In this document: positions 9,294-34,401 of the stretch, in pieces | Position numbering within the stretch: position 1 is the stretch's first letter | Layout: each line of letters starts with the position of its first letter | From: Escherichia phage vB_EcoP-683R2 | Sequence record: ON470594.1 | Reading direction: 5' to 3' (one strand) | Length of the DNA stretch: 43,142 bases | Program-made: the position numbers and the translations under genes | The notes under the pieces: model-generated | The model's input: the letters and a program-made list of their open reading frames with translations, nothing else | Databases searched by the model: none | Told to the model about the DNA's origin: nothing

Positions 9294-9776
9294 TTATTTG
9301 ATAAGAAGTGAAGGTTTCCCAACTTTGAGTTGAGCGCCGGGGATATTTATTCCTGCTTTTAGTTGGTGTTTGATTGCCAGTTTGTCGGCTTTAATTGTCG
9401 TTTCAAACTCAACGTATTCAGGAGGAAGGGCGCTTGAGTCGATGATTTCTACAGTTTCTGACGGTTTGCGGATTGTTACCTGGTGAATACCTGCTCGAAT
9501 CTTTTTCTTGCCAACCATTTCAAGCGATGACGCTATATATGATTTGATGCTCTCAATCTTATTTTGAATTACTGCGGCTCGCTCATTCAGTGACTTTGCC
9601 TCTTCCTTGAGGCGTTCAGCATAACCAGATTCATTTTTAATAATGGCAAGAAGTTGCTCTATTTTATCGGTAAATTCTCCTTCCATGCCTTCTATTGTGT
9701 CAGCAATCATCTCTGGTTCTAAATCTGAATCCATCAATTTTGCGTATTCATTGGCAATTTCATATAGTTTGCTCAC
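9294..9776 (-). CDS. Gp157-family protein (recombination-module accessory protein adjacent to RecT)
   Basis: GTG start 6 nt after GGAGG (gives MSKLYEIANEYAKLM…); about 160 aa, predicted coiled coil; position and N-terminus resemble Siphovirus Gp157-family proteins. Confidence 0.5.
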   Translation of the reverse strand: MSKLYEIANEYAKLMDSDLEPEMIADTIEGMEGEFTDKIEQLLAIIKNESGYAERLKEEAKSLNERAAVIQNKIESIKSYIASSLEMVGKKKIRAGIHQVTIRKPSETVEIIDSSALPPEYVEFETTIKADKLAIKHQLKAGINIPGAQLKVGKPSLLIK

Positions 9777-10671
9777 TGGCAACCTCCAGTTTCGCTTTGC
9801 ATTCTGCGTAAATGGCTTGTACGTTCTGCTGCAATTTCATTCCAGATGTCAGGCGATATGCTTCTGCAAAATATCGCTTCAAATCATCCATGTTTTCAGC
9901 CTGAGCCATTTCATCACAAAGAAGTTGTGCTTTATCCGTTATTTCCTGCTGGCGTTTCCGTTCATCTTCGCGGATATCTTCCTCTGATTTGTGCGGCATA
10001 ACTGGTTCAGTCCACACACCTTCTTCTTCGTTTAGTACGTGAACAGCACTATCAAGACGTGATGCCTTAGGCCAAAACTTGCTTGCACGCTTTACGACCG
10101 TCTTTCGCGCCATCTCATTCCAGTGATTTACCCATGGTCCTTTATCGCTGAATGCCGCCTTGCTTGTTTTCCTTACAGCCTCAATTTCAGCCAGACTCAT
10201 CTCTTCCGTTAGATAATCACCTGCTGGCGTCTTAACTGTGCAGTAAACGCCAACGATATCACCACGATCACCGAAGGCGTTGTATTTATGGGTTGGTGCT
10301 TTATCAAGCCCGTTTGACTCATAGGTATCGTTAGCATGAACAAGTTTTGCCTGACCCCATGAGATAACACCAGACTCCATTGCAATATGGAGCAATCCCA
10401 TATAACTGATATCAAGGCACACCATGCCGTCGCGAGGAACCAGATAAGCCAGTTTGCTGGCCGGGTTTAAGGTGATGCCGATCGCCGCAACATTGATGAT
10501 GGCGTTCTGTGCGCTGGTTGGATTTGCCAGTGCCGTTTTAGCCAGGTAATCATTTTTCTGGAAATACTGAATTGCAAACTGGCTTTCCTTAGCCCATGTC
10601 ACCGTCTGTTCAGTCAATGCTCCGCAGAATAACTGCTCTTGCTGTTTAACGAATTCAACGATATTGCTCAT
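9760..10671 (-). CDS. recT: RecT-family single-strand annealing recombinase
   Basis: 303 aa, ATG with GGAG RBS; conserved C-terminal block GPWVNHWNEMARKTVVKRASKFWP matches the RecT signature (compare Rac RecT …GPWVTHWEEMAKKTAIRR…). Confidence 0.85.
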   Translation of the reverse strand: MSNIVEFVKQQEQLFCGALTEQTVTWAKESQFAIQYFQKNDYLAKTALANPTSAQNAIINVAAIGITLNPASKLAYLVPRDGMVCLDISYMGLLHIAMESGVISWGQAKLVHANDTYESNGLDKAPTHKYNAFGDRGDIVGVYCTVKTPAGDYLTEEMSLAEIEAVRKTSKAAFSDKGPWVNHWNEMARKTVVKRASKFWPKASRLDSAVHVLNEEEGVWTEPVMPHKSEEDIREDERKRQQEITDKAQLLCDEMAQAENMDDLKRYFAEAYRLTSGMKLQQNVQAIYAECKAKLEVASEQTI

Positions 10672-10979
10672 GCAGCTTCTCCATAAATATGTCTGCGTTT
10701 GAATATTGCGAAGGCATATTCAGCCTTAACTCTTTCGGTTATTGCATCCCAGAACCATTCAGCGGCTTTTTCCTGATAGTTACAGTCATCATCTTCCAGC
10801 CAGTCGATAGCGTCCTTAGTGTGTTCATCTGGTTTATATGAGCGAAGCATTTCGCTTATTGGGTCGCAACGTTTGCAGAGGCGATCAACTTCACTGTTGA
10901 TTCGTTCGTAATCTTCATCAGTAAAACTTGCGATTATTTGCGATATTTCACGCTTATCATTCAGAGTCAGAATCATCAT
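10668..10979 (-). CDS. Hypothetical acidic protein at the Gam/Abc position upstream of recT (possible anti-RecBCD function)
   Basis: 103 aa, ATG with GGAG RBS; function inferred only from synteny (lambda gam and P22 abc occupy this slot). Confidence 0.4.
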   Translation of the reverse strand: MMILTLNDKREISQIIASFTDEDYERINSEVDRLCKRCDPISEMLRSYKPDEHTKDAIDWLEDDDCNYQEKAAEWFWDAITERVKAEYAFAIFKRRHIYGEAA

Positions 10980-11060
10980 CTTTCTCCTGTTCTTTGTGCT
11001 GATTGAGCATTTTGTTCATCTGACGAATGAATTCTTCGTCTGACCAGTTATCTGTAAAAC

Positions 11061-11213
11061 TCATTTCCTGCGATACCACGGAAGGTTGATAGCTGATTTC
11101 ATCGCTTTATTTGCTTCAAGCCACATTTTTGAATCACCAATAAATCTGGCTATTACTGCTTTGTTCTGTGCAGCACGAAGCATCTGGTGATTGATGGCTA
11201 TTTCATTGCGCAT
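11061..11213 (-). CDS. kil: Kil-like host cell-division inhibitor
   Basis: Unlisted 50-aa ORF; …ARFIGDSKMWLEA… resembles lambda Kil (…ATFIGDEKMFREA… as recalled); overlaps the 3' end of cIII as in lambda. Confidence 0.55.
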   Translation of the reverse strand: MRNEIAINHQMLRAAQNKAVIARFIGDSKMWLEANKAMKSAINLPWYRRK

Positions 11214-11329
11214 AATAAGACCTCAACTCTTTTCCATCCGTCACGTAACTTACGGGTGATTCGTTCAAGTAAAGATTCATTTAGTTGGAAGGCACCCATG
11301 CGAGCGCCTCCCGCGATTGCGTAAATCAT
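11198..11329 (-). CDS. cIII: CIII-like protein (FtsH inhibitor stabilising CII)
   Basis: Unlisted 43-aa ORF with AGGA RBS; core ESLLERITRKLRDGWKR is identical to the lambda CIII central helix. Confidence 0.7.
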   Translation of the reverse strand: MIYAIAGGARMGAFQLNESLLERITRKLRDGWKRVEVLLCAMK

Positions 11330-11353: not shown

Positions 11354-12322
11354 TTAGTAGGTTATTTTTGTTGCGAATACTTCGCCTTTTACGATGGCTG
11401 TTATGATATTGTTAGCAACATCTTCTGATGCACCAACCTTGATAAGGTCAGCAAGTATTTTGTTATTTACTTCTTTCCGGTGAGCTTTATCCTTTGCTCT
11501 ACACTCTTCTTCTTCCTTGATTCTTTTTTCTTCTGCTATTCTGGCTTGCTCTTTTGCTTCAGCCTCGCGCCGGATTCGTTCAGCCTCCTCCTGTGCTTTT
11601 CGGCGTTCTGCTTCAATTGCCGCCTGCTTTTCTCTTTCAGCTCGTTCTGCTGCCTCTTTTGCTTCGCGCTGTGCTCGTTGCTCGGCTTCAATACGTTCAC
11701 GCTCTGCACGTTCCGCTGCGGCCTTAGCTTCTGCTTCTCGCCTTGCTGCTGCTTCAATTTCGGCTTTTGCCTTTGCTTCGGCTTCTGCTCTGGCTTTCTC
11801 TTCAGCTTCTCTTTTTAAGCGTTCTTCATGCTCTCGCTTTTCCTGCTCCGCTTTGAGTCTTGCCTCTTCTCTTTGGCGGTCAAATTCGCGATCCATCAAA
11901 ATCGCTATTTCATGGTCAGACTCAATTTGCTTTGCGAGAGCTTCAGCTGCTGCCTTAGCTTCTTCTTCGGCTTTAATCCGTGCCTGCTCCTCCTCATAAT
12001 CAGTAAGAGGCTGGCGCGCCTTGGCTTTCAGTTCATCAAGGCGATCGCGCACTGTCTTGCGGTTGGCATCAATTAGCTTTGGAATTTCCTTCAGTTCAGC
12101 AACAAGGTCTTTGCCAAGACCATCGAGATATGTTTTCGTCTGCGCAACTTTATACGCCAGAGAAGCGATCTCCTTTCTGCCCTTTGCCGTTGTGATATCA
12201 GGCACAAAGGACATAACTTCACGTTCAACCTTTTGAAGGATTTCTTCAATCTGGTCGGCAGACTGAAATACAGTCATTGCATTTGCTTTTTCAATAACAA
12301 CTAAATCTGTTACTTCACTCAT
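11354..12322 (-). CDS. Protein with a long E/R/K/A-rich helical region (about 180 aa) flanked by small N- and C-terminal domains; function unknown
   Basis: Start at the internal ATG (MSEVTDLVVIEK…) 5 nt after GGAGGA; central region is nearly pure E/A/R/K with EAEAKA / RREAEAK repeats; plus-strand ORFs over the same DNA are low-complexity artefacts. Confidence 0.6.
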   Translation of the reverse strand: MSEVTDLVVIEKANAMTVFQSADQIEEILQKVEREVMSFVPDITTAKGRKEIASLAYKVAQTKTYLDGLGKDLVAELKEIPKLIDANRKTVRDRLDELKAKARQPLTDYEEEQARIKAEEEAKAAAEALAKQIESDHEIAILMDREFDRQREEARLKAEQEKREHEERLKREAEEKARAEAEAKAKAEIEAAARREAEAKAAAERAERERIEAEQRAQREAKEAAERAEREKQAAIEAERRKAQEEAERIRREAEAKEQARIAEEKRIKEEEECRAKDKAHRKEVNNKILADLIKVGASEDVANNIITAIVKGEVFATKITY

Positions 12323-12333
12323 ATATCCTCCAT

Positions 12334-12361
12334 CAAAAAAATCGCCCTCACATCGGAGGGC
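12334..12361 (-). terminator. Intrinsic terminator on the leftward (pL) transcript, tL1-like
   Basis: On the minus strand: GCCCTC-cgatgt-GAGGGC hairpin followed by GATTTTTTTGAT; lies between the 156-aa gene and the ERK-rich gene. Confidence 0.5.
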
Positions 12362-12465
12362 AAAGAAGATTTCCAATAATCAGAACAAGTCGGCTCCTGT
12401 TTAGTTACGAGCGACATTGCTCCGTGTATTCACTCGTTGGAATGAATACACAGTGCTTATTCATA

Positions 12466-12936
12466 CTAATAAAACACCCAATTTTCTGTTTCTTGGTTGT
12501 GTCCAAAGTTATATTCAATATCTGGTGTTGATGTATCAATATTCTTCATCCCATCAACAAGAGTTGATACAACAGCCAAATCTTGTTTGATTCTCATCAA
12601 ATGGTATTTCTTCCGGCGCAATAAACTTTCAATGGCAAGTTTCTTCGTCGGGAACGCAAAAGATCTTTCTGCATTTTTTGCTACTTTCTTAATTGCATAT
12701 CTATTTCTCCTTTGTTTCCATTCCTGTAACCACTGATTTGGTGCTGGTTTAAAATTAACAATCCAATGCGCAGGAACCAACCATGCATAATGCTCTGTCT
12801 GATGAAAAGCTATATATTGAAGTGCGAATATTTTTATCCCATCTTCTTCAACTGTCGCCTGGAATCTCCAGAAAACAGGCATTCCATCATGTTCAGTTTC
12901 TGATTCAGGAAAAGGTACGCTCCATGATTTTGTCAT
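12466..12936 (-). CDS. Hypothetical immediate-early protein (156 aa), immediately downstream of N
   Basis: ATG with GAGGTGA RBS, 9 nt after the N stop; no transmembrane segment and no recognisable domain; followed by a hairpin and then the terminator at 12334-12361. Confidence 0.6.
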   Translation of the reverse strand: MTKSWSVPFPESETEHDGMPVFWRFQATVEEDGIKIFALQYIAFHQTEHYAWLVPAHWIVNFKPAPNQWLQEWKQRRNRYAIKKVAKNAERSFAFPTKKLAIESLLRRKKYHLMRIKQDLAVVSTLVDGMKNIDTSTPDIEYNFGHNQETENWVFY

Positions 12937-12944
12937 ATCTCACC

Positions 12945-13271
12945 TCAAATAAGTGGTTTGCTGCCTAATTTCATTTTCTGGCGACCAACACAAGTCACCC
13001 CCATTTCACTGCGTGGCTTGCTGTACCATGTGCGCTGATTCTTGCGCTCAATACGTTGCAGGTTGCTTTCAATCTGTTCGTGGTATTCAGCCAGCACTGT
13101 AAGGTCTATTGGATTCAGTGCGCTTTCTACTCGTGATTTCGGTTTGCGATTCAGCGAGAGAATAGGGCGGTTAACTGGCTTTGCGCTTACCCCAACCAAC
13201 AGGGGATTTGCTGCTTTCCATTGAGCCTGTTTATCTGCGCGACGTTCGCGGCGGCGTGTTTGTGCATCCAT
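12945..13271 (-). CDS. N: Antitermination protein N
   Basis: Start at the internal ATG giving MDAQTRRRERRADKQAQWKAANPLLVGVSAKPVNRPILSLNRKPKSRVESALNPIDLTVLAEYH…, near-identical to lambda N (arginine-rich motif at the N-terminus). Confidence 0.9.
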   Translation of the reverse strand: MDAQTRRRERRADKQAQWKAANPLLVGVSAKPVNRPILSLNRKPKSRVESALNPIDLTVLAEYHEQIESNLQRIERKNQRTWYSKPRSEMGVTCVGRQKMKLGSKPLI

Positions 13272-13443: not shown

Positions 13444-13474
13444 GCCCTTCTTCAGGGCTTAATTTTTAAGAGCG
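13444..13474 (-). promoter_or_regulatory. nutL site (boxA CGCTCTTA and boxB GCCCTGAAGAAGGGC)
   Basis: The reverse complement of 13441-13474 reads CGCTCTTAAAAATTAAGCCCTGAAGAAGGGCAGC, matching lambda nutL as recalled. Confidence 0.8.
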
Positions 13475-13513: not shown

Positions 13514-13542
13514 ATAGTACGATTTGTACTTTATCAAGTCAA
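13514..13542 (-). promoter_or_regulatory. pL-like promoter (-35 TTGACT, -10 TACTAT on the minus strand) overlapping a perfect operator palindrome AGTACGATTTGTACT (13516-13530)
   Basis: Hexamers with 17-nt spacing, read on the minus strand; the palindrome overlaps the spacer and -10. Weaker half-site relatives lie at 13541-13555 and 13574-13588. Confidence 0.45.
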
Positions 13543-13605: not shown

Positions 13606-13636
13606 GGAAAAAGAAAACCCGACGCTAAGGTCGGGT
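13606..13636 (-). terminator. Putative intrinsic terminator downstream of cI
   Basis: On the minus strand: ACCCGAC-cttagc-GTCGGGT hairpin followed by TTTTCTTTTT. Confidence 0.4.
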
Positions 13637-13667
13637 TATTGTTGTGTGTTTTAGAGTTGTGAGGCTG

Positions 13668-14321
13668 TTAACTAAATGTCTCTTCAGGCCACTGGCTGGC
13701 GATAACTTTCCCTACTACGGAACAGCTATCATTGCATGGAATCATTGGATATTGCGGGTTTAGTGGCTGTAGGAACACCTGACCGCTATCCCTGATCAGT
13801 TTCTTGAAGGTAAACTCGTCACCACCAAGTCTGGCTATGCAGAAATCACCTGGCTCAACAGCCTGCTCAGGGTCAACGAGAATTAACATCCCGTCAGGAA
13901 AGCTTGGCTTGGATCCTGTTGGCGCGGTCATGGAATTACCTTCAACTTCAAGCCAGAACGCACAATCACTGGCTTTTTTGGTTGTGCTGACCCATCTCTC
14001 CGCATCACCTTTGGTAAAGGTTCTAAGCTCAGGCGAGAACATCCCGGCCTGAACATGAGAAAAAACAGGGTACTCATATTGTTTTTTAACGGGGGCAGAT
14101 GAGTATTCGCCAACAGGTGAAAATGTACCGTCGTGGTTGAATGAGACGTTATCAATACCAAGGTATTTAAACACCACACCAATCTCGTCAAGAGATGGAT
14201 GACGAGATCCGCGCAACCAGTGACCAATTCCACCCTGCGTCATACCAAGCTCTTCGGCTAACTTCTCTTGAGTTATGCCGAGCTCTTTCATTCTGGATCT
14301 AGCCAGTTCATACCATTTCAT
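13668..14321 (-). CDS. cI: CI-type prophage repressor: HTH DNA-binding N-terminal domain plus LexA/S24-like autocleavage C-terminal domain
   Basis: C-terminal part from …[38 protein letters not shown]… to the end is essentially lambda CI; the N-terminal about 90 aa differ (HTH …[23 protein letters not shown]…). Start placed at the ATG giving MKWYELARS…, 7 nt after AAGGG. Confidence 0.88.
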
Positions 14322-14336
14322 TTTCATACCCTTATT

Positions 14337-14412
14337 ATTACGCTCTGTACTAAAACCATCCATGCACAAGATGTATTTTTTGTTTGCATTCTAAAAGTAC
14401 ATATCGTATTAT
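14337..14412 (+). promoter_or_regulatory. oR/pR region: operator-like sites ATTACGCTCTGTACT (14337-14351) and AGTACATATCGTATT (14396-14410); candidate pR -35 TTGCAT (14384-14389) and -10 TATTAT (14407-14412)
   Basis: Same AGTAC-N5-GTACT half-site family as the oL palindrome; the second site sits between -35 and -10 of a promoter reading into cro. Confidence 0.4.
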
Positions 14413-33708: not shown

Positions 33709-34401
33709 ATGTTATATGCATTTAAGCTGGGCAGAAAACTGCGCGGCGAGGAACCTTGGTGCCCTGAAAAAGGCGGGAAAGGTGGTAGCTCTGATAAAAG
33801 CGCAAAGTATGCAGCAGAAGCTCAGAAGTATGCCGCAGACCTGCAAAATCAACAGTGGCAGACGATCATGAAAAACCTTGCTCCGTTCACTCCGCTTGCG
33901 GAGCAGTATGTTAACCAGCTTCAGAATCTTTCCAGTTTAGAAGGACAGGGGCAGGCACTTAATCAGTATTACAACTCTCAGCAGTATAAAGACCTTGCAG
34001 GTCAGGCGCGTTACCAGAGTCTTGCTGCTGCGGAGGCGACGGGGGGACTTGGCTCGACAGCCACAAGCAATCAACTGGCCACGATTGCCCCGACTCTCGG
34101 TCAGTCGTGGTTGTCGAACCAGATGAGCAACTACAACAATCTGGCAAACATTGGCCTTGGTGCGCTGCAAGGTCAGGCGAACGCCGGGCAGACATACGCC
34201 AACAACATGAGCAGCATTGCACAGCAAAGCGCAGCTCTTGCCGCTGCTAATGCCAACAAACCATCAAGTCTTCAGACAGCAATTAGTGGCGGAACGTCTG
34301 GTGCGATTGCCGGTGCAGGTCTTGCCAGCCTTTTGGGAACATCAACGCCTTGGGGCGCTGGCATTGGTGCTGGTATCGGATTGCTTGGCTCGTTGTTTTA
34401 A
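33709..34401 (+). CDS. Ejection protein (P22 gp7-like)
   Basis: 230 aa; N-terminus MLYAFKLGRKLRGEEP… as in P22 gp7 as recalled; Gly/Ala-rich C-terminus. Confidence 0.65.
   Translation: MLYAFKLGRKLRGEEPWCPEKGGKGGSSDKSAKYAAEAQKYAADLQNQQWQTIMKNLAPFTPLAEQYVNQLQNLSSLEGQGQALNQYYNSQQYKDLAGQARYQSLAAAEATGGLGSTATSNQLATIAPTLGQSWLSNQMSNYNNLANIGLGALQGQANAGQTYANNMSSIAQQSAALAAANANKPSSLQTAISGGTSGAIAGAGLASLLGTSTPWGAGIGAGIGLLGSLF

What the first reader, a model, noticed from the sequence alone, without database searches (positions are those of the whole stretch)
12334..12936. Immediate-early gene of unknown function between N and a tL1-like terminator
A 156-aa ORF with a good RBS begins 9 nt after the N stop and is followed first by a perfect 9-bp hairpin (12424-12451) and then by a canonical intrinsic terminator (12334-12361). 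It would therefore be expressed from pL with N even before antitermination takes effect. It has no transmembrane segments and no recognisable domain. Immediate-early slots in lambdoid phages typically hold host-takeover or anti-restriction functions (lambda ral lies in the equivalent region), so this is a candidate anti-defence or host-modulating protein.
Basis: partly seen in the sequence, partly recalled or inferred. Interest (0 to 1): 0.55.

Follow-up and report, generated by a model that had tools for sequence, protein, structure and literature searches.

The report
Uncharacterised early gene beside PreS sRNA
A real, strongly conserved phage gene of unknown function (identical to HK97 gp45 and 933W p19) sits right after the N antiterminator, but the hairpin and terminator behind it belong to the already described PreS small RNA and tL2a terminator of lambda-like phages, not to the gene.

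Summary
A 156-aa ORF (12466-12936, minus strand) starts 8 nt after the N stop with a GAGGTGA Shine-Dalgarno. A hairpin (12424-12451) and an intrinsic terminator (12335-12363) follow it.

The gene is real: dN/dS is about 0.05-0.09. It is not new. It is identical to HK97 gp45, 933W p19 and phi24B 11c. It lies in 598 of 5426 complete E. coli genomes and 82 phage records, always annotated hypothetical (PHROG 1636).

It has no Pfam, NCBIfam or PADLOC match. A confident model (pLDDT 95) has no relative among solved structures.

The "tL1-like terminator" label is wrong. The hairpin and terminator are 96% identical to lambda 33911-34045, between ral and ea10. That stretch is tL2a and the Hfq-dependent PreS/LPR1 sRNA, which raises dnaN translation.

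The ORF is low-GC cargo that replaces lambda's sieB-orf28-ral block in a variable slot. It follows five N types, and Nmad5 or other cassettes are sometimes inserted beside it.

Immediate-early expression is plausible. An anti-defence or host-modulating role fits the position but is untested. The conserved basic surface and the lack of conserved catalytic residues suggest a binding protein rather than an enzyme.

The parts
13514..13542 (-). pL-like sigma-70 promoter (TTGACT, 17 nt spacer, TACTAT)
   Evidence: Consensus scan, 9 of 12 matches. It lies just downstream of the cI gene (13668-14369) and its terminator, as pL does in lambda. Function is inferred from position only.
13444..13474 (-). 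nutL: boxA CGCTCTTA (13474-13467) and boxB GCCCTGAAGAAGGGC (13458-13444)
   Evidence: Read directly from the sequence. The region aligns with the lambda nutL/N region at 85% identity. That the boxB matches lambda nutL exactly is from my own knowledge.
12945..13271 (-). Antiterminator N, lambda type, 108 aa, with a variant C-terminus
   Evidence: Pfam N36 E = 8.4e-26 and PHROG 271. RefSeq annotates identical copies as antitermination protein N.
12940..12946 (-). Shine-Dalgarno GAGGTGA for the 156-aa ORF, overlapping the N stop codon
   Evidence: Read from the sequence. The junction GCAGCAAACCACTTATTTGAGGTGAGAT is kept even where the upstream gene differs.
12466..12936 (-). 156-aa ORF = HK97 gp45 / 933W p19 / phi24B 11c (PHROG 1636). 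18.6 kDa, pI 9.1, function unknown
   Evidence: Purifying selection. GC 36.7% against 46.7% for the window. AlphaFold model pLDDT 95.3. No relative among solved structures.
12422..12453 (-). Conserved RNA hairpin (9 Watson-Crick pairs at 12424-12451; 14 pairs with G.U as RNA; CAAC loop) abutting the 5' end of the PreS homolog
   Evidence: fold. Identical to lambda 34014-34045 in the alignment. It is conserved together with PreS in 2234 E. coli genomes. Its role as a processing site or 3'-end stabiliser is inferred.
12335..12423 (-). Homolog of the lambda PreS/LPR1 Hfq-dependent sRNA (about 88 nt in lambda). The 5' end is approximate
   Evidence: 129/135 identity to lambda 33911-34045; the differences lie only in the terminator loop and beyond the T-run. 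LPR1 is placed between ral and ea10 and ends at tL2a in bioRxiv 10.1101/2024.10.31.621285. There is no Rfam family for it.
12335..12363 (-). Intrinsic terminator homologous to lambda tL2a (stem 12363-12342, T7 at 12341-12335). It is the first predicted terminator downstream of pL in this phage
   Evidence: scan; homology; the T-run aligns with lambda 33930. tL2a is named.
11354..12322 (-). Next pL-operon gene: 322 aa, PHROG 1376, unknown function, with a Glu/Ala/Lys-rich middle (RefSeq calls it 'TolA'). It sits in the position of lambda ea10

Best explanation
The 603-bp interval holds two separate things.

(1) A mobile cargo gene, the 156-aa ORF (HK97 gp45 family). It has replaced the sieB-orf28-ral block of lambda between N and a conserved backbone. 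It is transcribed from pL with N and has its own strong ribosome-binding site. No predicted terminator lies upstream of it, so it should be made from the first minutes of lytic growth, before and after N acts.

(2) The backbone itself: a conserved hairpin, then the PreS/LPR1 small RNA, ending in the tL2a intrinsic terminator. In lambda this RNA binds Hfq, raises dnaN translation and helps phage DNA replication.

For the protein, the mechanism I think most likely is this. It is a soluble, non-enzymatic binding protein. It uses a conserved basic surface (strand 83-86, the following loop, and the long helix 98-130) to bind a nucleic acid or an acidic host or defence protein. It acts early in infection as a dispensable counter-defence or host-modulating factor.

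Shown: the gene is real, under purifying selection, horizontally mobile, in a variable slot, and of a fold with no solved relative; the RNA module is homologous to lambda PreS/tL2a.

Inferred: immediate-early expression, binder rather than enzyme, and the counter-defence or host-modulation role.
For: Gene reality and selection:
- Full-length PHROG 1636 match.
- dN/dS 0.09 (11 synonymous, 4 non-synonymous changes) and 0.05 (9 and 2) against L097 and L098. 23 of 31 polymorphic sites are in codon position 3.

Cargo character:
- GC is 36.7% against 46.7% for the window.
- The identical protein follows five different N types (lambda type; a 99-aa MTVVITYLADD type; the H-19B/HK97 type; a type carrying the P22 gp24 arginine-rich motif; an MSRKTEFKG type), or follows other inserted cassettes.
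- It lies between N and cIII in a Cronobacter prophage, but is the last gene before xis-int in Pectobacterium and Brenneria prophages.
- 834 copies in 598 of 5426 E. coli genomes, against 3193 copies of the hairpin/PreS module in 2234 genomes. About a quarter of such loci therefore carry it.

Slot:
- Lambda and P22 hold sieB, ral and gene 17 here.
- None of about 90 loci carrying the ORF has ral or sieB within 4 kb.
- The window aligns with lambda only at nutL-N and at PreS.

Early expression:
- No terminator is predicted between 13514 and 12466 on the minus strand.
- In lambda, LPR1 is detected 10 min after induction.
- Relatives in other phages sit first or second in early operons, or among early genes next to ParB-like, Rha-like, PmgT/ASCH-like and methyltransferase genes.

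Binder rather than enzyme:
- Across 74 family members only G33, T47, K87 and A101 are at least 90% conserved.
- Residues 57-130 hold 17 Lys/Arg and are flanked by acidic ends.
- Conserved basic positions in the close family are K84, K87, R91, R107, K109, H112 and R115.

RNA module.
Against: - The slot argument is guilt by position. That slot also holds genes of other kinds (sieB, ea10/ssb-like genes).
- The protein is basic, unlike the acidic DNA-mimic anti-restriction proteins (Ocr, ArdA; from my own knowledge).
- Its neighbours in distant phages (ParB-like, Rha-like, beta-clamp, MarR) fit a DNA-transaction or regulatory role equally well.
- Rho-dependent termination upstream of or within the ORF cannot be excluded by computation.
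- The ORF's sequence does not occur in the held supplementary files of the one published accessory-gene screen I could check, so that screen gives no result for or against a function.
- PreS function has been shown only in lambda, and in a preprint.
Confidence: 0.4

Rival explanations
1. The protein serves the phage's own development. It would be a DNA- or RNA-binding accessory factor for early transcription, replication, recombination or the lysis-lysogeny decision, not a factor aimed at host defences.
For: - Conserved basic beta-strand/helix surface.
- Relatives lie next to ParB-like, Rha-like, MarR and beta-clamp genes and next to PmgT/ASCH-like genes.
- Casjens and co-workers note that sporadic DNA-interaction genes of lambdoid early-left operons cluster at the int end or the cI end (PMC12315714). 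Those are the two positions where this family is found.
- The gene sits beside PreS, which boosts the replication clamp.
Against: - It is dispensable: lambda and P22 have no homolog in their pL regions.
- It is carried by about a quarter of PreS-bearing E. coli prophage loci, with patchy, cassette-like distribution and low GC.
- No DNA-binding fold was recognised.
Confidence: 0.25
2. It is a host-takeover factor that inhibits an essential host process, in the way Kil blocks septation. It would be toxic when expressed alone.
For: - Immediate-early position in the same operon as kil (11061-11213).
- Also present in virulent phages.
- It looks like a small binding protein.
Against: No homology to any known host inhibitor, and no toxicity data found. 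This reading overlaps with the host-modulation half of the main explanation.
Confidence: 0.15
3. It is a superinfection-exclusion or defence gene that works for the lysogen, like sieB in the same slot, and is expressed from the prophage.
For: - Lambda and P22 keep sieB in this slot.
- Neighbouring cassettes in related loci include a predicted membrane protein, PHROG 3054.
Against: - It is on the pL strand, 8 nt behind N, with no promoter-like site of its own. It should therefore be repressed in the lysogen.
- It has no membrane segment and no PADLOC match.
- Relatives occur in early regions of phages that look virulent.
Confidence: 0.07
4. The ORF is not translated, and the region matters only as RNA or as a spacer upstream of PreS.
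For: None beyond the absence of any known function.
Against: - Third-position bias of polymorphism and dN/dS below 0.1.
- Protein-level conservation down to 55% identity across Enterobacterales, and about 20-25% identity in other phages.
- A confident fold prediction and a strong Shine-Dalgarno.
Confidence: 0.01

Closest known systems
HK97 gp45 / 933W ST933Wp19 (NP_049479) / phi24B vb_24B_11c / RefSeq WP_000167595 (PHROG 1636)
   Same: Identical or nearly identical 156-aa protein, also directly downstream of N and upstream of the same hairpin and terminator. HK97 differs by one residue.
   Different: Nothing of substance. The partner N type and the gene downstream of the terminator differ (H-19B-type N with cIII or ea10 there; lambda-type N with a 322-aa gene here). 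All copies are annotated hypothetical.
Lambda PreS (LPR1) sRNA with the tL2a terminator (Silverman et al., bioRxiv 10.1101/2024.10.31.621285)
   Same: Window 12322-12456 is 96% identical to lambda 33911-34045, with the same GC-rich stem and poly-U tail and the same place in the pL operon. The body of the RNA is identical; the only changes within the RNA are in the terminator loop.
   Different: The gene upstream is the 156-aa ORF instead of ral, and the gene downstream is a 322-aa gene instead of ea10. Hfq binding and dnaN regulation have not been tested for this phage.
Lambda Ral (restriction alleviation) and the sieB-orf28-ral block
   Same: Same slot between N and the hairpin/PreS module. 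The two look mutually exclusive: no ral or sieB in about 90 loci that carry the ORF. Ral is likewise a dispensable early gene.
   Different: No sequence similarity. Ral is 66 aa. sieB is on the opposite strand with its own promoter, and I recall it as a membrane protein (not checked here). The ORF's activity is unknown.
Lambda tL1 terminator
   Same: Only position: it is the first predicted terminator after N in this phage.
   Different: By homology the terminator here is tL2a, an intrinsic terminator downstream of ral. As I recall, lambda tL1 is Rho-dependent and lies just beyond N, in a region absent from the window; that region does not align.
P22 gene 17 (allows growth on a Fels lysogen)
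   Same: An accessory gene of the N-to-cIII interval with a counter-exclusion role, showing what this interval can hold. Gene 17 homologs lie just downstream of PreS in 9 loci that carry the ORF.
   Different: Unrelated in sequence.

Membership tests
HK97 gp45 family (PHROG 1636) | Full-length sequence match to the family profile | tested here: met
   E = 2.7e-112 over residues 1-156 of a 156-position profile. 100% identity to the copies in phi24B and 933W, and one substitution against HK97.
HK97 gp45 family (PHROG 1636) | Location in the early-left (pL) operon of lambdoid phages | tested here: met
   After N in the window, HK97, 933W and phi24B. Relatives in Cronobacter, Pectobacterium and Brenneria are also in the pL operon.
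PreS/LPR1 sRNA module | At least 92% nucleotide identity to lambda LPR1 (the criterion used in the preprint) | tested here: met
   129/135 (96%) to lambda 33911-34045, which includes the hairpin and the terminator. The criterion is quoted.
PreS/LPR1 sRNA module | GC-rich terminator stem plus poly-U tail (tL2a) at the 3' end | tested here: met
   8-bp stem with 5 G-C pairs followed by T7, and folded as such.
PreS/LPR1 sRNA module | Intact seed that pairs with dnaN | tested here: inconclusive
   Everything between the hairpin and the terminator stem is identical to lambda, so the seed should be intact. The exact seed coordinates are shown only in a figure that I could not read.
PreS/LPR1 sRNA module | Hfq binding, accumulation of an RNA of about 88 or 68 nt in the lytic cycle, and up-regulation of dnaN | not testable with these tools
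   Shown for lambda only.
Lambda tL1 | Homology to the lambda region just beyond N; Rho-dependent | tested here: not met
   The window aligns with lambda only at nutL-N and at 33911-34045. The terminator is intrinsic and corresponds to tL2a. Rho dependence of tL1 is from my own knowledge.
Ral restriction-alleviation proteins | Sequence similarity to lambda or P22 Ral | tested here: not met
   The family profile finds nothing in the lambda or P22 pL regions. tblastn with both Ral proteins finds nothing in the window or in related loci.
SieB superinfection exclusion | Own promoter, orientation opposite to pL, and sequence similarity to SieB (I also recall SieB as a membrane protein; not checked here) | tested here: not met
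   No hydrophobic segment, same strand as pL with no promoter-like site, and no similarity.
2H phosphoesterases (Acb1-like), considered because of the H45-x-T47 motif | Two HxT/S motifs on beta-strands and the 2H fold | tested here: not met
Moron (an added gene with its own promoter and terminator, in the sense used for HK97) | Base composition unlike its neighbours; own promoter and terminator | tested here: inconclusive
   GC is 10 points below the window, and presence is cassette-like. No promoter of its own was found, and the terminator behind it belongs to PreS.
Known anti-phage defence proteins (PADLOC) | Significant match to any model | tested here: not met
   Best hit is Cas1_II at E = 0.018 and 12 bits.

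The most novel reading that the evidence does not exclude
The HK97 gp45 family is about 150 residues long, has a fold with no solved relative, and occurs in the early regions of both temperate and virulent phages of several bacterial phyla. It could be a new class of immediate-early counter-defence or host-takeover protein. It would neutralise a nucleic-acid-targeting host system, or an acidic host protein, by direct binding through its conserved basic face. In Stx phages it would then influence which E. coli strains support lytic growth and toxin release.
Probability: 0.25. Interest if true: 0.6.

Novelty: already known. Interest (0 to 1): 0.35.

Why it matters
- The gene is one of the commonest passengers of lambdoid prophages. 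It lies in 11% of complete E. coli genomes, with up to four copies, and in most sequenced Stx1 and Stx2 phages as well as the model phage HK97.
- It should be among the first phage proteins made after induction.
- It has been annotated as an ORF in the 933W and HK97 genome records for a long time, yet I found no publication on its function. Its predicted fold has no solved relative.
- Assigning it a role would fill a gap in the early programme of Shiga-toxin phages.
- The practical correction is just as useful. The hairpin and terminator that looked like features of the gene are the PreS sRNA/tL2a module. That module is present but unannotated in 41% of complete E. coli genomes. Any deletion of the ORF must therefore be designed to leave that RNA intact.

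Tried and rejected
- Pfam, NCBIfam and PADLOC scans of the ORF gave only sub-threshold noise.
- A Pfam scan of 74 family members gave no shared family.
- Sequence searches of the PDB with the protein and with the family profile gave best E-values of 0.13 and 0.29.
- The first AlphaFold run, on 22 close homologs, was poor (pLDDT 61). The second, on 74 diverse members, was confident (pLDDT 95.3).
- Foldseek against the PDB gave nothing at E of 0.001 or better.
- Foldseek against BFVD found only uncharacterised phage proteins.
- The afdb50 library was not available.
- I considered a 2H-phosphoesterase reading of the HxT motif and rejected it (see the membership test).
- Multi-domain hits P0059 and P0081 are repetitive sequences and spurious. 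P0051 only has a Cys-rich N-terminal extension. There are no informative domain fusions.
- Neighbour analysis in distant relatives gave a weak recurrence of a PmgT/ASCH-like gene: adjacent in 2 loci and in the same operon in 1. This is too thin to build on.
- The search for related loci failed with the diverse alignments because no conserved block was long enough.
- Literature searches for vb_24B_11c, WP_000167595 and HK97 gp45 returned nothing relevant.
- The ORF's sequence is absent from the held supplementary files of the accessory-gene screen in PMC12373910.
- The searches for 'tL2a' and for 'tL1, tL2' were unproductive, and the Casjens and Hendrix lambda review is not held.
- Rfam has no family for the intergenic RNA.

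Full report
**What is in the sequence.**
On the minus strand the window carries a lambda-type early-left control region.
- cI lies at 13668-14369, followed by a terminator-like hairpin at 13637-13616.
- A pL-like promoter lies at 13542-13514.
- boxA CGCTCTTA is at 13474-13467 and boxB GCCCTGAAGAAGGGC at 13458-13444.
- N is at 12945-13271 (Pfam N36, E = 8e-26).

The 156-aa ORF runs from 12936 to 12466. Its ATG is separated from the N stop codon by 8 nt, and a GAGGTGA Shine-Dalgarno overlaps that stop.

Then comes an intrinsic terminator, with its stem at 12363-12342 and a T7 run at 12341-12335. The intergenic RNA is far more structured than shuffled controls (z = -5.2). The next gene starts at 12322.

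**The ORF is a real gene and a known one.**
- It matches PHROG 1636 end to end (E = 2.7e-112).
- It is 100% identical at the protein level to genes in 73 of 82 matching phage records. These are mostly Stx1 and Stx2 converting phages, and include 933W (ST933Wp19), phi24B (vb_24B_11c) and BP-4795. The model phage HK97 carries it too (gp45, one substitution).
- In complete E. coli genomes it occurs 834 times in 598 of 5426 genomes, at 95% nucleotide identity or better, and is always called hypothetical.
- Two E. coli copies picked on nucleotide identity alone differ from the window by 11 synonymous and 4 non-synonymous changes, and by 9 and 2. This gives dN/dS of about 0.09 and 0.05. Across 32 haplotypes, 23 of 31 variable sites are third codon positions.
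- Full-length homologs at 55-85% identity occur in prophages of Pectobacterium, Brenneria, Cronobacter, Rosenbergiella and a Symbiopectobacterium.
- An exhaustive profile search found 87 cluster representatives. Most are proteins of 130-155 aa at about 20-25% identity that align over residues 20-140.
- All 74 aligned members hit only PHROGs of unknown function (1636, 13631, 25384, 28215) and no Pfam family.

**Structure.**
With 22 close homologs AlphaFold gave a poor model (pLDDT 61). With the 74-member alignment it gave a confident one (pLDDT 95.3, pTM 0.83). The model has:
- three long antiparallel strands (19-30, 33-46, 50-55);
- two short helices and a short strand (83-86);
- a 33-residue helix (98-130);
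- an ordered C-terminal tail.

The protein is 18.6 kDa with pI 9.1 and has no hydrophobic segment. It is charge-polarised: residues 57-130 hold 17 Lys/Arg, while both ends are acidic. Across the whole family only G33, T47, K87 and A101 are at least 90% conserved. Within the close family the conserved polar residues are mostly basic: K84, K87, R91, R107, K109, H112 and R115. That pattern suggests a binding surface rather than a catalytic centre. This is an inference.

**The hairpin and terminator are a separate, described RNA module.**
BLAST against lambda shows that the window matches only at nutL-N and again at 12322-12456. The second match is 129/135 identical to lambda 33911-34045, the interval between ral and ea10. 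The only differences within the RNA lie in the terminator loop; the rest are beyond the T-run.

Silverman et al. (bioRxiv 10.1101/2024.10.31.621285) report the following for that lambda interval:
- It encodes LPR1, renamed PreS, an Hfq-bound sRNA of about 88 nt that is processed to about 68 nt.
- Its 3' end is the tL2a terminator of the early-left operon.
- It is made only in the lytic cycle, from 10 min after induction.
- It raises dnaN translation and supports phage DNA replication.
- It is conserved at 92% identity or better in 2,537 genomes.

In the window, the 89 nt from just after the hairpin (12423) to the end of the T-run (12335) correspond to it. The hairpin therefore abuts the sRNA's 5' end. 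It is conserved with the sRNA in 3193 places in 2234 of 5426 E. coli genomes, none of them annotated. Rfam 15 has no model for it.

The lambda stretch that contains sieB, orf28 and ral (and, as I recall, the Rho-dependent tL1) has no counterpart in the window. The 0.48-kb ORF replaces it.

**A variable cargo slot.**
Eighty IMG/VR loci and several RefSeq and GenBank loci encode the same, or in a few loci nearly the same, protein. They show that it follows at least five different N types, sometimes with an additional cassette between N and the ORF:
- lambda type;
- a 99-aa MTVVITYLADD type;
- the H-19B/HK97 type;
- a type carrying the P22 gp24 arginine-rich motif;
- an MSRKTEFKG type.

The junction GCAGCAAACCACTTATTTGAGGTGAGAT includes the last codons of lambda-type N. 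It persists upstream of the ORF even behind unrelated genes. That marks the ORF as a cassette which moved with a scrap of its old neighbour.

Other variations of the slot:
- Some prophages have an Nmad5-family gene between N and the ORF (L002, L097, L098).
- Others have two small genes (PHROGs 1273 and 10407) between the ORF and the hairpin (L003).
- Further cassettes are a predicted membrane protein (PHROG 3054) and proteins of 62, 74 and 89 aa; those scanned (PHROGs 3054, 19863 and 5305) have no known function and the 89-aa one was not scanned.
- None of about 90 ORF-bearing loci carries ral or sieB within 4 kb. By contrast, 34 carry ea10 and 9 carry a P22 gene 17 homolog downstream of PreS.

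The ORF's GC content is 36.7% against 46.7% for the window. In Pectobacterium and Brenneria prophages the homolog is the last gene before xis-int. In a Cronobacter prophage it lies between N and cIII. About a quarter of hairpin/PreS loci in E. coli carry the ORF (834 of 3193).

**How it most likely works.**
Shown:
- The gene is real, selected and mobile, sits in the sieB-ral slot, and is co-oriented with pL.
- It has its own strong ribosome-binding site.
- No predicted terminator lies between pL and its stop codon.

Inferred:
- It is transcribed with N from the first moments of lytic growth, and transcripts not modified by N end at tL2a.
- The product acts by binding through the basic face.

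Its target is unknown. The slot's known occupants deal with restriction, exclusion and counter-exclusion (ral, sieB/esc, gene 17). Relatives in other phages sit at or near the start of early operons, or among early accessory genes near methyltransferases. That makes a counter-defence or host-modulating role the best single guess (confidence about 0.4). The same relatives also sit next to ParB-like, Rha-like, MarR and beta-clamp genes. A role in the phage's own DNA or RNA transactions is therefore a serious rival (about 0.25). A sieB-like role for the lysogen is unlikely, because the gene has no promoter of its own and no membrane segment.

**Comparison with what is known, and verdict.**
As an entity the ORF is already catalogued (HK97 gp45, 933W p19). 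The two RNA features next to it are already explained (PreS, tL2a). What remains open is the protein's function and its apparently unsolved fold.

I found no paper that addresses it, and its sequence is not among the accessory genes listed in the held supplementary files of one published screen. The finding is a sound but ordinary 'conserved hypothetical in an accessory slot'. Its value comes from its prevalence in Stx phages and from the correction about PreS. Interest 0.35. The most novel reading still open, a new class of immediate-early counter-defence protein, has probability about 0.25.

Noticed in passing
window 12335-12453 (minus strand): Homolog of the lambda PreS/LPR1 Hfq-dependent sRNA with its tL2a terminator, preceded by a conserved 14-bp hairpin. 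The module is present in 2234 of 5426 complete E. coli genomes and annotated in none of the 30 records listed. Rfam has no model for it.
   Followed up: yes
L022, L031, L016, L040, L003 (just downstream of the ORF); also upstream of the ORF in about 8 IMG/VR loci: A recurring linker, GGCCGCATAGTCGGCC TTTATTTTTGGCATAAACAACAGA, separates successive cassettes in the slot downstream of N. It is a small terminator-like hairpin and may serve as the recombination joint for cassette exchange.
   Followed up: partly
upstream of the ORF in L010-L089: The last roughly 20 nt of lambda-type N (GCAGCAAACCACTTATTTGA) travel with the ORF even when the upstream gene is unrelated. This marks the cassette boundary inside the old N 3' end.
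   Followed up: partly
L002 3368-3991; L097 1814-2437; L098 1583-2206: An Nmad5-family 'putative nucleotide modification' gene is inserted between N and the 156-aa ORF in some E. coli prophages. L098 has one further 83-aa gene there.
   Followed up: partly
window 11354-12322 (minus strand): A 322-aa protein in the position of lambda ea10, PHROG 1376, function unknown. Its Glu/Ala/Lys/Arg-rich central region makes RefSeq label it 'cell envelope biogenesis protein TolA', which is probably a low-complexity artefact.
   Followed up: partly
L027, L056, L064, L078, L079, L086 and others (about 145 nt downstream of the ORF): Homologs of P22 gene 17 (88% identity), the gene that allows growth on a Fels lysogen. 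They sit immediately downstream of the PreS terminator in 9 loci. In P22 itself gene 17 lies upstream of a terminator.
   Followed up: no
L094 3938-4645; L009 1059-1691; L006 2376-2981: A PmgT-like protein (PHROG 874; weak ASCH-domain hit in one member) lies directly after the family member in a Pseudomonas phage and in a metagenomic contig. It is in the same operon in a Pectobacterium prophage.
   Followed up: partly
window 13616-13637 (both strands): A hairpin scored as terminator-like on both strands, between cI and pL. The minus-strand reading (stem AACCCGAC...GTCGGGTT, then TTCTTTTT) probably ends the cI transcript.
   Followed up: no
L099 2374-2442 (E. coli O157:H7 JEONG-1266): In this Stx prophage the gene upstream of the ORF is annotated only as a 69-bp 'regulator, incomplete' pseudogene. 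The stk kinase and the other neighbours match 933W, so N may be disrupted or missed by the annotation.
   Followed up: no
window 9294-11329 (minus strand): The rest of the pL operon has a cIII-like 43-aa ORF (11198-11329), Kil (11061-11213), a RecT-like annealing protein (9760-10671) and a Mu Gam-like end-protection protein (9294-9782), in place of the lambda exo-bet-gam set.
   Followed up: partly
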